A stretch of 64,000 nucleotides of DNA, taken from NCBI RefSeq assembly GCF_009914755.1, contig NC_060925.1. The stretch is one strand, 5' to 3'. Below are positions 25,938-56,109 of this stretch, piece after piece. Under the pieces are notes generated by a model. It had not been told where the DNA came from, did no database searches, and saw only the letters and a program-made list of their open reading frames with translations. The position numbers and the translations under genes are program-made. Position 1 is the first letter of the stretch, and each line of letters opens with the position of its first letter. Source of the DNA: the human T2T-CHM13v2.0 reference genome, Homo sapiens.

Positions 25938-27485
25938 AGAATGTTTCCTCTTATAACTCATAGTGAATATGACTGGACAATGAAACTATTTTGTAATTTC
26001 TTTCCTGAAAGATAAAGGCGTTAGAACATAGAATCTTTCATTGATTCTACAGAATCTTAAGACTCCTTCAGAGATGGCAGTCATTCCTACCGTGCTGAAC
26101 ATCATGTTGTCACGGTCAGAATCAGAACTAAATTGATTAAGGGTCTGAAACAGTTTGGCACTCTTGGGCACTTATTCTGATAAGAAAGCTGATGAGACAG
26201 GGTAATGAAAAGAGGCTGCAAGAAATGACCATTCATGCATTCAGCCAACATTTAGGCCACCCTCCTGTATTCCAGGCACTGTACGTGGCACTGAGAATGC
26301 AAAGCAAAACGAGTCATGGTCTACTGGCAGGAGCCTTCTCAGCGGAGAAAAGATCAACAAGAAAAGTGCCTGCTGGAGACCTCTCCTAGGGCATAAACCA
26401 ATATAGAGGTGGGGCAGCTACGTCAGCCTGAGGTGTCCTTAGGCAGAACAGAAAGTGAGAATCAGAGCAGTATCTCATTTCTGAACACCTGGATTGTAGC
26501 TTTCCCTGGACTGACTGTCAAAGGAGGTGGTTTTAAAAAGCAAGCCAAACAGGTTTCCATCCTTTAGGAAGACCCTGGAACGTGCCAGTTGATTCTGACA
26601 ATTTCTCATGAACAGAAACACCTAGGAAGGGAGAACTGGTGAGTCTTTTCAAGAGGAGGAAGTCCCTCAAAAGGGGCTGTGTTTCGCAAACGGCGCCCCA
26701 AAAGGGCTGAAATACTTCGATCTGGAGGAAAAAGACTCAGGCACTGAGGGAAGGGGAGGGTGCACATCTGGAGTAATTTCAAGGCTTTTTCCGTGTTATC
26801 TGATGTGGCAACAAGTAAAGATTTGTTCGTTTTATTATTTTTTTAATTTTTAAAGATTTTCTTTTCCCCCCTTTTCCCCCTCCCGGCCACTCCGGTTTGT
26901 GTTTGCCACAAGACTCATAATTCCTTTAGAAAGTGGAGTCGAATTCATAAAAGTGATGGGGGGGAGAGCGCGGAGAGGGAAGGCTGGGAGCCCCAGGGAG
27001 TCTTCACTACCTACACTGCCGCTCAGCTCCCGGCGCGAGTGGAGGTCGGGGTGGGGAGACGCGACTCCTGCCCGGGATGGCTGACACTCTGCGAGCCCCG
27101 GCGGCCCGCGGCCGGGCCGGGTGACTAGGCGGAGGGCGCGGAGGGTCCGCGGCGGGCGGGTGGCGCTGCAGCAGCCTGGGCACGGCTGCCGCCGCCCGCG
27201 GGCGAGAGTGTGCACGGGTGTGGAAGGCCGGAGTGCGGGCCGTGAGGGGTGTGCGCGCTTGAGCCGGAGCGGGGCTCGCCCCTCGTCGGCTCCCGCCGCC
27301 CAGCCGGTGATCGCTCTCCGGCCGTCCCCGGCACCCTCGGCCCCCCACGGCGGTTGGTCCGGGCGGGGGAAGGAGAAAGTGAGACTCGGTGTCATCACCA
27401 ATCCGTCGCCAGAAGGGGAGGAAACTGGAATCCAGCAGCGGCGAGCAGCAGCTGGGCGGTCACATCTGGAAATGGAAAGCCGACC

Positions 27486-27532
27486 TCCCCCTCCTCCTCC
27501 ACCTCCTCCTCCTCCTCCTCCTTCTCCTCCTC
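27486..27532 (+). repeat. (CCT)n tract immediately upstream of a CAG acceptor at 27540
   Basis: direct inspection. Confidence 0.9.
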
Positions 27533-27680
27533 TCACCCAGGATCACTTCCGAAACCAGTTGGCCTTCAGCCCCTGCCTCGGCCAGAGGTTTCATTTTTAA
27601 CTGAATATTTACGAAAGCTGAAAGCGTGCGAGGGGGGTGGGGTGGAAATAGCGGCTGCTTCTTTTCCAAGGATTTATTTA

Positions 27681-27768
27681 ATGGGGATGTGTTCAAGGCA
27701 AGACCGAATTCAGAAGGATATCGACGTCGTGATCCAGAAGTCCAGAGCTGAGGACTGCCTGTTTGCAG
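27681..27768 (+). pseudogene. Duplicated PARP8 coding exon 1 (MGMCSRQDRIQKDIDVVIQKSRAEDCLFA)
   Basis: Matches recalled PARP8 N-terminus MGMCSRQERIQKDIDVVIQKSRAEKDCLFA with E>D and a one-codon deletion; donor CAG|GTGAGT at 27768/27769. Confidence 0.9.
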
Positions 27769-28432
27769 GTGAGTTCTTGCTTTTCCAGAACCTCGGACCC
27801 AGCGCCCCCTTCTCAGTTCTCCGACCGCGACGTGTGTGGCTGGGGGTGGGGTGGAGGGTTTGCACGTCCGCATTCCGGGGTTCATTTGGCGACAGCTGCT
27901 GCAACGAACGCGGGAGCCAAAAGCGGGAGGGGGCGCCAGCCTCGCCCCTTCCCCTCCCCCCACCCCCAAGTCTGGGGCAGCTACTAGCTTTGAAGGCAGA
28001 ACCCGAGTGGCCCGAGCGGGGGTCTAGGCGAAGGGGCAGTGCGTGGTATTTCCAGCCCCGCGTAGTGCCCGAAGCCTGCAAGCACGCCTCCTGGGTTCCA
28101 GCAGCGGCGGCAGAGCGGGGTTGGTTGGACCCGCCAGGTTTGCGTAATGGGCTGAGCGGCGGCGGCCGGGAATGGAGCCTGCTGCCCTGCGCTCGTAAGC
28201 TGCGCCCGGCGCCGAGGACCCCCGGGGGGCAGCGCTCGGCCCATCTCCGGCCCCTTCGGCTCCATCTAGTCCCCTCCGACTGGCAAAGAGAAGGGATTCC
28301 TCGGATTCCCAAGGCACCCAGCGCCCCTGCCTGGGGGGTCGCCGTTCGTCCATTTTGCTCCCCCGGGAGAGAGATCGGATTTTGCTTTCGCTGCCGCGAG
28401 CCCGGCTGGGGCTGCTTCCGGCCTCCCCGACC

Positions 28433-28460
28433 GGGAAATTCCCGCCGTTGCCATGGCACC
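28433..28460 (+). promoter_or_regulatory. Adjacent NF-kB site and RFX X-box motifs
   Basis: GGGAAATTCC 28433-28442; GTTGCCATGGCACC 28447-28460 (one mismatch to GTTGCCATGGCAAC). Confidence 0.5.
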
Positions 28461-53083: not shown

Positions 53084-53378
53084 TTTTTTTTTTTTTCAGA
53101 TGGAGTCTCACTGTGTCCCCAGGCTGGAGTGCAGTGGCGCGATCTCAACTCACTGCAAGCTCTGCCTCCCGGGTTCACGCCATTCTCCTGCCTCAGGCTC
53201 CCGAGTAGCTGGGACTACAGGCGCCCGCCACCACTCCTGGCTAATTTTTTTTGTATTTTCAGTAGAGACGGGATATCACCATGTTAGCCAGGATGGTCTC
53301 GATCTCCTGACCTCGTGATCCGCCCTCCTCAGTCTCCCAAAGTATTAGGATTACAGGCGTGAGCCACCGCCCCCGGCC
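53084..53378 (-). mobile_element. AluY-like element
   Basis: reverse Alu with AluY diagnostics; TSD CTCAAAGAT. Confidence 0.9.
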
Positions 53379-53956
53379 CTCAAAGATTGTTATGAGTCCT
53401 CACAGATGTCAGAGGACGATGCTGTGACCTATATTTGCAAACGCCCGGAAGACTTAAAGCTATTGTTTTGCAAATGCACAGATAACAATAATAACATGAT
53501 GCTGTGGATGAGCATGAAAGTTTTTCTCTTATTCCTAATTATAATGTTTTCCCTCTTACTGCTTTGCCCTGCTGATGGAATTCAGTAAAGGAATCTCTAC
53601 CAGCAGACACTTGGTTTTTACCCTTCCTAGGACCTTTAATAGATATCTTTTTATTACTAATCTTTGCTCTTTGCTTGTTTAACCTCCTTGTAAAGTTTGT
53701 GTCTTCCAGATTACAATAATTCCATGTAAAGATGATGCTGGCACAAGGCTTTCAACCCATCCCCTCTTCTGACCCAGAAGATAAAGACATCCTACCTTTG
53801 AGCCTTTTAGAACAGGTATCCAGGGATTTTACCTCTCCAGTGCTAGGCAGGGTCTATGCCCATAACATCAGCAGGAAGCAGTTACAGAAGATGAACCTCC
53901 GCCCTTCTGCAAGCCCCTTAAGATTAAGGAGGAGTATATAATCTCTGATGGGGAAA

Positions 53957-54488
53957 TGAGGTAGGAGACCAGAAGGACTTATTTTCCATTCCCAACCCCA
54001 TTGAACAGAGCAGGATCTGGTCAAAACAGGGTGCAGTGGAGAAGCCTGCTGAAACCAGCAGATGATGATGAAAGTGACCTCTAGTTGCCCTCACTGCTTA
54101 TGAGCATAAAGACACTACCACTGGGACCATGGCCAGTTTACAAATGTCATGGCAACACACCTTGGCAATGGCCTGGAAGTTACTTTATATGGTTCTGGAA
54201 ACTCCCTGCCCCTTTCCCAGAAAGTTCTGAATAACCTACCTCTTAATTGGCATGCAATTAAAAGTGGCTCTAAATACAACTAGCTAGTAGCCCACAGGCA
54301 CCAACTCTGGGCACACTGCCTATAGGTTAGCCCTGCTCTGCAAGAAGTAGCACCAGTTCAATAAAAGTTGCTTTCTCTCACCAGCGGCTTATCCTTGAAT
54401 TCTTTTCTTGGCAAAGCCAAGGAGACTACAGTCTGGGAGAAATTTCCCACGCTACAAACCAGTTTTGGGGCTTGCCTGCCCTGTGTCA
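53957..54488 (+). mobile_element. ERV1 3' LTR (MER66-like)
   Basis: TGAGGTAGGAGACC start after GATGGGGAAA; AATAAA 54360-54365; ends TGTGTCA. Confidence 0.75.
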
Positions 54489-54801
54489 CTATCATTATTT
54501 CCTTGGATTTCACAGGAGTGTACATGTGTGAGACTGCTGCCCTGCTTATAGATCTGTTTCCCTGCAGGAAACAGGAGTATCTTGCCTGTGGCTTCCAGAG
54601 TTGGAGATACATGTAGTTTCACTACTGAGTGCTAACATTTAATTTTGGAATCAAGTGATGCAATCAGACTGGTTGCTATCATTCTGTGGTATACATGTAG
54701 TGAACACATTTGTGACTGAGTTTCCTGCTTTTAGCTGGAGCAAGAAAGTTTTATAATTGTGATTTGTACAAAAAAAATGATAGGCAAGAGAATGTGTGTA
54801 A

Positions 54802-54814
54802 AATAAACTTTATT
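54802..54814. terminator. Back-to-back poly(A) signals on both strands
   Basis: AATAAA (+) 54802-54807 and TTTATT (AATAAA on -) 54809-54814. Confidence 0.5.
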
Positions 54815-56109
54815 GTCAGAGGTTTCTAAACGCTCATCCTTCAAGGAAAACGGACATATGCTGAAGAGCTGATAAACAGTCTACAGCAGTGTTTTTCTAA
54901 CTTAATCTTGATTACAAGTCCTTGCCATTTTCCTCCAGCTGCTGTTGACTCCAGTTATATATAGGTTGGGGGAAAGGGGATTATCTATGGATGTAGGCAT
55001 CACTGTCTCTTGGGCAGTTATCACATTTGCAGGCTGAAGGGATGTGATTTTTATAATCAAACTATCCATTTGGAATACAAATCTGGAGTGGCTGTAAAAT
55101 TTGCTTCTCGGAGATGGAGCTTTCAAATTTGGACTTTCAATTGTTCTGTTGTTTTAGTTGTTCTCGTCAACTGGGGAACTGTTTGTGACTAAGCTTTGTT
55201 AAAAGTAGAGAAGAGCTTTTCATAGTTCCAACATCAGTTGTTACCTGAAACAAACAAAAACACACACACATATACAATGAAACAATAATCTTTGGTGAGG
55301 TCTTGCTGATACCTAACTGAGGCTGGAGTGAGAGCTAAGTGGTGATACAGGCCAGGTGCAAACTGAGTGCAGCTAAGTGGATAATCTCTGGTAGTGAACT
55401 ACAGTCTAGAAGAAGATAGTAATAATAGATAGAAAAGAAAGTCTCCTGAAATGAACTAGCTGGCCTGTGGTGTAGGACACAGGACCCCAGCCACCTTATG
55501 ATTCTAAAAGCCTTGCTCAAAGCCGCTGCAGATGAGTTAGCTAGGTCTCTACCACCTCCTCAGCATCAACTGACTTTCCATAATACTCCTCTGCAGAGAA
55601 ATAAAGGTCTTTCACGCCTCCCAGGAAGGGATTTGCTTAGCCTCAAATGTGCACATTCAGAAATAGCTGTCATAAGAAAGAGAGGATAGTTTGCAGAGAA
55701 ATAACCCTCCTAAGTCCACATCCTATTCCTTTTAAATAAGAGAGTGGTGCCAAGGGAAGAGCCCTAGAATGTCAAAGCCAACAGGGTGCTCAGATACCAC
55801 CCAAGTACAGTTCCATCTTTGGCCATAAGGAGACAATGGTGTCAAGAGGCTAAGGCCATATGATCTGTAGGTGAAAAACCTGGGATGAGAATCAAGGCCT
55901 CAAACTTTTTCCACTACATCACAGATTTAGGAGCAGTTAGAGGGAAGGCTTCAATCTGGAGAACACTAACAGGCTCTAGAGATTATTGGGTCATGGTGGC
56001 TGGGACAGAAATAAGGATTCACAGAAAGATGTTTGTTGTCAATGTTCTTTTACAGTAAATGTTCTTTTGAGATTTTGCTTGATAAAAAGGTTGAGCAGAA
56101 GTGAAAAAA

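What the first reader, a model, noticed from the sequence alone, without database searches (positions are those of the whole stretch)
26990..54830. Young chimeric gene built from a PARP8 promoter, antisense FAM91A1 retrocopy exons and an LTR terminator
Seen: a CpG island and PARP8 exons 1-2 with canonical splice sites, and no further PARP8 exons. About 22 kb downstream, the antisense strand of the FAM91A1 retrocopy offers AG...GT-bounded segments (acceptors at 50748 or 50802 with donor GAG|GTAGGA at 50923; 52061-52221). An ERV env-derived pyrimidine-rich acceptor lies at 53709, and AATAAA signals lie in the LTR (54360) and at 54802. Inference: segmental duplication joined four unrelated modules into a new multi-exon transcription unit. 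This is probably the LINC01138 family, so the RNA itself is likely annotated; the part-by-part origin and coding potential are what deserve a look.
Basis: partly seen in the sequence, partly recalled or inferred. Interest (0 to 1): 0.8.

Follow-up and report, generated by a model that had tools for sequence, protein, structure and literature searches.

The report
Mosaic origin of lncRNA LINC01138
The annotated human lncRNA LINC01138 is a patchwork gene: a duplicated PARP8 promoter drives transcription into an inverted FAM91A1 pseudogene, two Alu repeats and an old retroviral remnant that supply its later exons and its poly(A) site.

Summary

Parts:
- Window 25938-50443 is a genomic copy of chr5:51484535-51508192 (K2P 0.039-0.042). 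It holds the PARP8 CpG island, exon 1, exon 2 and 21.7 kb of intron 2. The PARP8 identity was confirmed by named protein hits.
- At 50440-50446 this copy joins, through about 3 bases of microhomology, the middle of an inverted FAM91A1 processed pseudogene. The pseudogene holds 17 chr8 exon pieces without introns.
- The junction is single-copy in this assembly.
- The pseudogene lies inside a gammaretrovirus-like ERV remnant.

Exon sources:
- Exons 2-3 are antisense pseudogene.
- The rest of exon 5 is env remnant plus LTR. Its AATAAA at 54360 precedes the annotated end at 54380.

Four exon-defining features exist only in this copy: the junction, the exon-3 GT donor, the exon-4 AG acceptor, and the second Alu.

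"Young" is only partly true. The PARP8 copy predates the great apes by divergence. Secondary copies differ by only 0.7%.

Coding potential is small: a 65-codon PARP8-ATG chimeric ORF, and the published 61-codon "MP60" ORF, which is antisense to the pseudogene's 5' end.

The parts
25938..50443 (+). Segmental duplicate of the PARP8 5' end (chr5:51484535-51508192): 1.5 kb upstream sequence, CpG island, exon 1, intron 1, exon 2 and 21.7 kb of intron 2
   Evidence: two colinear HSPs of 19.5 kb and 4.0 kb, K2P 0.039 and 0.042; chr5 exons 1 and 2 encode the N-terminus of proteins named PARP8, including the Homo sapiens entry.
26990..28600 (.). Retained CpG island (promoter)
   Evidence: 148 CpG, o/e 0.80, GC 0.68, against 141 CpG, o/e 0.79 in chr5. 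CpG-site divergence is 12% (39/323) here and 36% (122/340) in the intron.
27450..27768 (+). LINC01138 exon 1 = PARP8 5'UTR plus the first 29 codons (ATG at 27681); also a 42-codon upstream ORF from 27472
   Evidence: hub table. Against chr5 there are 307 matches, 11 mismatches and 9 gap columns. All four forward-strand chr1 copies aligned (window, L003-L005) share a 3-nt deletion and one E-to-D change relative to chr5.
28676..28729 (+). Relic of PARP8 exon 2, skipped in NR_027468.3; this copy alone has a 1-nt deletion
45541..46388 (.). Young interspersed-repeat insertion (L1-like by recall) that is absent from chr5 and present in the three chr1 copies examined across it (L034, L035, p148)
50440..50446 (.). 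Breakpoint joining PARP8 intron 2 to the middle of the inverted FAM91A1 pseudogene; about 3 bases (GCA) of microhomology; single-copy in the assembly
   Evidence: 8 of 8 candidates scored; only the self-hit spans the junction
50443..52487 (-). FAM91A1 processed pseudogene (LOC647481). It is truncated at its 3' side by the breakpoint and has an internal 459-nt deletion at 51556/51567.
   Evidence: 17 colinear chr8 exon pieces with no introns. FAM91_N E 1.3e-56 and FAM91_C E 9.9e-107; the three other copies keep six more internal exons and the last exons.
50803..50923 (+). LINC01138 exon 2, antisense to two FAM91A1 coding exons. Both splice sites already exist in the chr8 antisense sequence.
   Evidence: hub table
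52013..52221 (+). LINC01138 exon 3: antisense of FAM91A1 exon 2 (part), of a repeat-derived cassette exon (52065-52191) and of exon 1 (part). The acceptor CAG is shared by all four pseudogene copies (chr8 has CGG). The donor GT is found in this copy only (GGG in chr8 and in the three other copies).
   Evidence: hub table
52237..52422 (+). 61-codon ORF that matches the published MP60 reagents. It is antisense to the pseudogene's exon 1/5'UTR and intronic in NR_027468.3.
52488..52751 (+). ERV pol remnant (integrase C-terminus)
   Evidence: dispersed copies at 72-86% identity. MLVIN_C E 0.011, below the cut-off.
52752..53084 (-). Alu 1 (antisense), shared with the three paralogous blocks. It holds exon 4 (52782-52903). 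The acceptor TAG is in this copy only (TTG or TAA in the others). The donor is CAG|GC.
53085..53381 (-). Alu 2 (antisense), present in this copy only, flanked by the repeat CTCAAAGAT. Its poly-T/CAG gives the exon-5 acceptor at 53099.
53100..54380 (+). LINC01138 exon 5 (alternative start at 53696)
   Evidence: hub table
53382..53946 (+). ERV env remnant (C-terminal part of the transmembrane subunit, with stops and frameshifts)
   Evidence: TLV_coat E 0.0028, 16.9 bits, below the cut-off, at the profile end 525-559/560..
53947..54440 (+). 3' LTR (ends approximate). AATAAA at 54360-54365 lies 15 nt before the annotated RNA end.
   Evidence: about 465-bp unit (window 53957-54421) repeated at many loci at 76-82%.; the signal is conserved in the paralogue.

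Best explanation
LINC01138 at this locus is a mosaic RNA polymerase II transcription unit made by segmental duplication and rearrangement.

Shown:
- A 24.5-kb genomic copy of the PARP8 5' end kept its CpG island.
- Its distal end is fused, at a microhomology breakpoint, to the middle of an inverted FAM91A1 processed pseudogene.
- That pseudogene had earlier landed in the pol region of a gammaretrovirus-like ERV beside the 3' end of a PDE4DIP copy.

Inferred from the annotation:
- Transcription starts at the PARP8-derived promoter.
- Exon 1 splices from the PARP8 donor across 23 kb of former PARP8 intron to sites on the antisense strand of the pseudogene (exons 2-3).
- Splicing continues to an antisense Alu (exon 4) and to a second antisense Alu acceptor (exon 5).
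- Exon 5 runs through the env remnant into the LTR, whose AATAAA ends the RNA.

The unit needed few changes. Exon 2's sites pre-existed. One acceptor arose before the pseudogene block duplicated. The breakpoint, one GT donor, one AG acceptor and one Alu insertion are private to this copy.

The main product is most likely a non-coding or poorly translated RNA. The PARP8 ATG opens only a 65-codon chimeric ORF that stops in exon 2 of 5.
For: PARP8 piece:
- Colinear 23.5 kb match to chr5 at K2P 0.039-0.042.
- chr5 exons 1-2 encode the N-terminus of named PARP8 proteins.
- The island keeps 148 CpG, o/e 0.80, with CpG decay three-fold lower than in the intron.

Junction:
- chr5 homology ends and pseudogene homology begins within 50427-50443, sharing GCA.
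- Only the self-hit spans it, with 8 of 8 candidates scored.
- The three other pseudogene copies continue into later FAM91A1 exons.

Pseudogene:
- 17 chr8 exon pieces are colinear and intron-free.
- FAM91_N and FAM91_C match on the minus strand.

ERV: integrase, env and LTR remnants lie in that order on the + strand.

Splice sites.

Transcript:
- RefSeq NR_027468.3 has the intron 27769-50802 (hub table).
- RT-PCR with primers at both ends of NR_027468 recovered spliced isoforms (PMC11226785, passages read).

ORFs.
Against: - I examined no RNA reads, CAGE or 3'-end data. Use of the sites rests on the RefSeq table and on papers, one of which (PMC5910401, RACE and northern) is retracted.
- The ERV protein matches are below Pfam's cut-offs.
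- The age and mechanism of the junction cannot be fixed without other primate genomes.
- Gene conversion among the chr1 copies could distort the divergence figures.
- One paper (PMC12428246, passages read) reports a translated 60-residue peptide from another isoform. "Non-coding" may therefore not hold for all isoforms.
Confidence: 0.88

Rival explanations
1. The locus is really a protein-coding (micropeptide) gene. Its biological product would be a small new protein: either the 65-codon PARP8-ATG chimera (29 PARP8-derived residues plus 36 from the antisense pseudogene) or the 61-codon MP60 ORF at 52237-52422.
For: - PMC12428246 (passages read) reports a Flag knock-in, antibody and mass-spectrometry evidence for MP60.
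- Its two sgRNAs map exactly to 52246-52269 and 52412-52435.
- The PARP8 ATG and its context are kept in exon 1.
Against: - The MP60 ORF begins 16 nt past the exon-3 donor, so it is intronic in NR_027468.3.
- The same frame has two stops in the chr8 parent and is frame-shifted in the three other pseudogene copies. There is therefore no sign of conservation among human homologues.
- The 65-codon ORF follows a 42-codon upstream ORF and stops in exon 2 of 5. By the usual 50-nt rule (established knowledge) that predicts nonsense-mediated decay.
- The retracted PMC5910401 reported no in vitro translation product from NR_027468.
Confidence: 0.2
2. The RNA is a by-product without a function of its own. 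The duplicated CpG island stays active as a promoter or enhancer, and downstream cryptic sites in repeats splice and terminate whatever is transcribed.
For: - Every exon after the first is antisense pseudogene, Alu or ERV.
- The hub table lists the island as enhancer elements.
- The functional literature is contradictory: tumour-suppressive in PMC11226785, oncogenic in the retracted PMC5910401.
Against: Three private changes (GT donor, AG acceptor, Alu 2) all improve exon definition in this one copy, which is suggestive though not a test of selection. LINC01138 is listed among duplicated genes expressed in human fetal cortex (PMC6092419, passage read).
Confidence: 0.45
3. The promoter-pseudogene junction is a very recent, human-specific rearrangement (an inversion inside a recent duplicon) and not an old feature of the primary PARP8 duplicate.
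For: - In two other chr1 duplicons (148.7 and 120.9 Mb) the pseudogene block lies about 45 kb from the PARP8 piece in the opposite orientation.
- The PARP8 piece differs from the 148.7 copy by only K 0.007.
Against: - The pseudogene/ERV/PDE4DIP block here is K 0.037-0.067 from the block at 148.8 Mb. It is therefore not a recent copy of that block.
- This window keeps 3.5 kb more PARP8 intron than any other chr1 copy, as expected of the source copy.
Confidence: 0.25

Closest known systems
LINC01138 (RefSeq NR_027468.3 / NR_104014), the annotated gene itself
   Same: The exon coordinates in the hub table match the splice signals and poly(A) signal found in the sequence.
   Different: Nothing differs. 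What is added is the origin of each part. I found that origin stated in none of the papers returned by four searches.
Duplication-derived 5'-truncated genes of 1q21, such as NOTCH2NL (first four exons of NOTCH2 plus a new last exon from intron; PMC6092419, passage read)
   Same: A segmental copy of the promoter and first exons of a parent gene ends in former intron, lies in the same 1q21 duplication landscape, and has secondary copies less diverged than 1%.
   Different: NOTCH2NL keeps a long parental ORF and makes a protein. Here only 29 parental codons survive, and the rest of the RNA comes from unrelated repeats on the antisense strand.
Alu exonisation and LTR-supplied polyadenylation (established knowledge of transposable-element contributions to lncRNAs; recalled, no paper read here)
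   Same: Antisense Alus give poly-T plus AG acceptors. A single T-to-A change makes the exon-4 acceptor. The LTR's own AATAAA terminates the RNA.
   Different: Here these elements are combined with a borrowed protein-gene promoter and a pseudogene read backwards.

Membership tests
Segmental-duplication-derived chimeric transcript | Promoter and first exon are a genomic (intron-containing) copy of a parent gene's 5' end | tested here: met
Segmental-duplication-derived chimeric transcript | A breakpoint joins the copy to unrelated sequence that supplies downstream exons | tested here: met
   exon table from the hub
Segmental-duplication-derived chimeric transcript | RNA molecules spliced across the breakpoint | not testable with these tools
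   Only the RefSeq model and RT-PCR reported in PMC11226785 bear on this; no reads were available.
Processed pseudogene of FAM91A1 | Parental exons contiguous without introns | tested here: met
   17 colinear chr8 pieces; exact exon-exon joins.
Processed pseudogene of FAM91A1 | Protein-family signature on the pseudogene strand | tested here: met
   PF14647 E 1.3e-56 and PF14648 E 9.9e-107
Processed pseudogene of FAM91A1 | Poly(A) tail and target-site duplication | tested here: inconclusive
   The 3' end is cut off in this copy. The tails of the three fuller copies were not examined.
Gammaretrovirus-like ERV remnant | pol, env and LTR in proviral order, with family-level protein matches | tested here: inconclusive
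   The order is right and dispersed copies exist. MLVIN_C (E 0.011) and TLV_coat (E 0.0028) are below the curated cut-offs. No repeat library was available to name the family.
PARP family gene | PARP catalytic domain | tested here: not met
   Only exons 1-2 of PARP8 are present and the homology ends in intron 2. This is not a PARP gene.
Conserved micropeptide gene | ORF kept open in homologous sequences | tested here: not met
   the 61-codon ORF is open in 1 of 5 human homologues (window yes; chr8 and three paralogues no). Other species could not be tested.

The most novel reading that the evidence does not exclude
A gene was born stepwise and can be read off one assembly. A borrowed PARP8 promoter was fused to a backwards FAM91A1 pseudogene. 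Three private mutations then built exons: a GT donor, an AG acceptor and an Alu insertion. In an alternative isoform, an ORF that is open only in this copy, antisense to the pseudogene's 5'UTR, yields a real de novo human or hominoid peptide (MP60).
Probability: 0.2. Interest if true: 0.6.

Novelty: already known. Interest (0 to 1): 0.3.

Why it matters
LINC01138 is widely used as a cancer marker and has been given conflicting functions. Its make-up explains several pitfalls:
- Exon 1 is 307/318 identical to PARP8 exon 1 over the ungapped aligned bases.
- Exon 1 shows 2 to 4 mismatches in the three other chr1 copies I could align.
- Exons 2-3 are complementary to FAM91A1 mRNA.
- Exons 4-5 begin in Alus.

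Probes, siRNAs, qPCR and short-read counts can therefore cross-react. One paper reported PARP8 changes after LINC01138 overexpression without noting the homology.

The locus is also primate-age by divergence. That is hard to reconcile with a published claim that one isoform and its peptide are conserved in mouse.

Finally, it is a clean worked example of how duplication plus a few point changes assembles a spliced, polyadenylated RNA.

Tried and rejected
1. A Pfam PARP (PF00644) search of the whole assembly, meant to name the chr5 gene, gave 26 matches and none on chr5. This was uninformative because small exons split the domain. I replaced it with a protein search using chr5 exon 1.
2. A 17-kb query was swamped by a young repeat; all 30 scored candidates were that repeat. 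I used shorter queries and fetched loci instead.
Only the boundary stretches of two paralogues were fetched. The ends of the 144.3 and 120.9 Mb copies therefore rest alone.
5. I considered simple insertion of the PARP8 piece into the pseudogene. I rejected it because the missing 3' part of the pseudogene is nowhere in the window. No fourth chr1 copy of it exists either (10 of 10 candidates scored, giving three copies at 99-100%, chr8, a chr4 piece at 94% and chr11 at 72-85%).
6. I considered a recent inversion within a young duplicon. It is disfavoured by the 0.7% versus 5% divergence contrast.
7. In one search two minus-strand paralogues (L002, L006) were aligned in the wrong orientation. I dropped them from the exon comparisons.
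8. Repeat family names for the L1-like insert, the Alu subfamilies, the LTR and the cassette-exon repeat could not be assigned, because no repeat library was at hand.

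
Full report
**What is there.** The window is human chr1:146.32-146.38 Mb (T2T-CHM13), and the finding covers the annotated lncRNA LINC01138.

- GC reaches 0.73 and 0.70 in the island.
- The RefSeq exons (hub table) have these signals: exon 1 donor TTGCAG|GTGAGT; exon 2 TTGTAG| and GAG|GTAGGA; exon 3 TTGCAG| and CAG|GTATAG; exon 4 T-run-AG| and CAG|GCACGT (a GC donor); exon 5 T-run-CAG|.
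- AATAAA at 54360 lies 15 nt before the annotated end.
- The + strand AATAAA at 54802 overlaps a TTTATT that fits the minus-strand PDE4DIPP6 end at 54793.

**PARP8 module.** A search of the window's own assembly with 27400-28760 found six chr1 copies at 97-100% and one chr5 copy at 92%. With fetched chr5 DNA, window 25938-45541 and 46388-50427 align colinearly to chr5:51484535-51508192.

- Over 19,467 and 4,030 aligned bases the K2P distances are 0.039 and 0.042.
- The gap (45541-46388) is a young repeat insertion absent from chr5.
- chr5 exon 1 translates to 30 residues and exon 2 to 17 residues. Both are identical to the N-terminus of proteins named PARP8, including the Homo sapiens entries.
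- All four forward-strand chr1 copies aligned (window, L003-L005) share a 3-nt deletion and an E-to-D change in exon 1.
- This window alone has a 1-nt deletion in exon 2.
- The duplicated island is intact: 148 CpG, o/e 0.80, against 141 CpG, o/e 0.79 in chr5. CpG sites diverge 12% in the island and 36% in the intron.

From the low CpG decay I infer that the island has stayed unmethylated in the germ line, as an active promoter would.

**Breakpoint.** chr5 homology runs to about 50443. From 50443 the sequence is the antisense of FAM91A1 exons. The two sources share GCA at the join. A 301-nt query across the join found 8 candidates, all scored, and only the self-hit spans it.

The other chr1 copies of the PARP8 piece stop earlier. 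Three stop at window-equivalent 46930 and two at 46386. This window therefore holds the longest PARP8-derived stretch and is probably the source copy. The 148.7 Mb copy differs from the window by K 0.007 over 28.8 kb.

**FAM91A1 module.** Window 50398-52487 matches chr8:124900719-124941232 as 17 colinear pieces without introns, all on the strand opposite to the window's + strand.

- Coding pieces are 93-100% identical. The 5'UTR/exon 1 piece is 90%.
- Minus-strand ORFs match Pfam FAM91_N (E 1.3e-56) and FAM91_C (E 9.9e-107 and 7.8e-24).
- One piece (52065-52191) is not a standard exon. It matches a dispersed repeat inside chr8 intron 1 at 87%. In chr8 this repeat is flanked by TTTTCTAG| and |GTAAGT on the gene's sense strand, and it is joined exactly between exons 1 and 2 in all four pseudogene copies. 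The source mRNA therefore carried a repeat-derived cassette exon.
- Three other copies exist at 142.84, 148.80 and 120.99 Mb. They keep 459 nt, equal to six more chr8 exons, and they continue into the last exons and 3'UTR.
- The window copy is thus internally deleted and 3'-truncated by the breakpoint.
- Its block is K 0.037-0.067 from the 148.8 Mb block.

**ERV, Alu and LTR modules.** Past the pseudogene's 5' end the window holds the following.

- 52488-52751 has dispersed copies at 72-86% and a sub-threshold integrase C-terminus match (MLVIN_C, E 0.011).
- Two antisense Alus follow.
- 53382-53946 has a sub-threshold env match at the very end of the TLV_coat profile (E 0.0028).
- An LTR-sized unit (53957-54421) is repeated at many loci at 76-82%.

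The same loci elsewhere often carry both the pol-like and env-like pieces in the same order. The pseudogene therefore sits in an ERV remnant.

Alu 1 is shared with the three paralogous blocks at 93%. Alu 2 is absent from them, is only 80% like Alu 1, and is flanked by a 9-nt direct repeat.

**How the exons arose.**

| Site | State in this window | State elsewhere |
|---|---|---|
| Exon 2, both sites | present | already present in the chr8 antisense sequence |
| Exon 3 acceptor | CAG | CAG in all four pseudogene copies; CGG in chr8 |
| Exon 3 donor | GT | GGG in chr8 and the three other copies |
| Exon 4 acceptor | TAG | TTG or TAA in the three other blocks |
| Exon 5 main acceptor | in Alu 2 | Alu 2 absent |
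| LTR AATAAA | present | kept in the paralogue |

**Age (inference).** With a recalled primate rate of about 1e-9 per site per year, K 0.04 puts the chr5-to-chr1 duplication near 20 Myr ago. A slower ape rate would make it older. This is before the great-ape radiation. K 0.007 puts the secondary copies at a few Myr, unless gene conversion has kept them alike. The junction itself cannot be dated here.

**Coding potential.** The spliced NR_027468.3 model is 2052 nt. It holds three ORFs worth noting:

- a 42-codon upstream ORF;
- a 65-codon ORF from the PARP8 ATG (29 PARP8-derived residues plus 36 from the antisense pseudogene), which stops in exon 2;
- Alu- and ERV-derived ORFs of 76 codons or fewer.

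A 2025 paper reports a 60-residue peptide, MP60, from another isoform (PMC12428246, passages read). Its two sgRNAs map exactly to 52246-52269 and 52412-52435. The ORF is 52237-52422, which is 61 codons in this assembly. It is antisense to the pseudogene's exon 1/5'UTR and starts 16 nt beyond the exon-3 donor. The same frame has two stops in chr8 and is frame-shifted in the three other copies. That paper's claim of conservation in mouse is hard to reconcile with the primate-age origin shown here. I could not test mouse.

**Literature.**

- LINC01138 with PARP8: 1 paper, which gives no origin statement.
- PARP8 with 1q21 and segmental duplication: 0 papers.
- LINC01138 with segmental duplication: 2 versions of one work. 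It lists the gene among hominid-specific duplicated genes expressed in fetal cortex.
- FAM91A1 with retrocopy: 1 preprint, which names only the gene.
- FAM91A2P, FAM91A3P or LOC647481: 5 papers; listing seen only.
- The RACE/northern paper PMC5910401 is marked retracted.

**Verdict.** What this work adds is the exact part list, the unique breakpoint, the copy-specific splice-site changes, and the placing of the published peptide ORF.

Noticed in passing
window 52237-52422 (+): The published MP60 micropeptide ORF of LINC01138 is antisense to the 5'UTR/exon 1 of the FAM91A1 pseudogene. It is open in only 1 of 5 human homologues. The paper's claim of mouse conservation looks doubtful.
   Followed up: partly
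window 27710-28516 (-): The predicted protein LOC124905733 is a 268-codon R/G/P/S/A-rich ORF in the CpG island. It has no Pfam match. It is open in the four chr1 copies examined but frame-shifted, with an early stop, in the chr5 parent. It is probably a spurious model.
   Followed up: partly
window 52065-52191; L037 (chr8:124905136-124905276): The FAM91A1 pseudogene preserves a repeat-derived cassette exon from intron 1 of the parent gene, flanked there by good splice signals. This is evidence of an old alternative, frame-breaking FAM91A1 isoform.
   Followed up: partly
window 45541-46388 and 25327-25939: Two fragments of the same kind of young repeat (L1-like by recall) lie in opposite orientation. 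One is at the upstream edge of the PARP8 duplicate. The other is inserted in it, with an internal inversion.
   Followed up: no
window 54793-54815: LINC01138 and PDE4DIPP6 are convergent, with annotated 3' ends 413 nt apart. AATAAA on + (54802) and TTTATT (54810) sit side by side.
   Followed up: no
G000 C4:158571508-158572476: A chr4 stretch is 94% identical to the 3'UTR part of the fuller FAM91A1 pseudogenes. Its relation to the part missing from this window is unknown.
   Followed up: no
PMC11226785, section 3.7: PARP8 was among the genes reported as changed after LINC01138 overexpression. Exon 1 of the lncRNA is about 96% identical to PARP8 exon 1, so cross-detection is possible.
   Followed up: no
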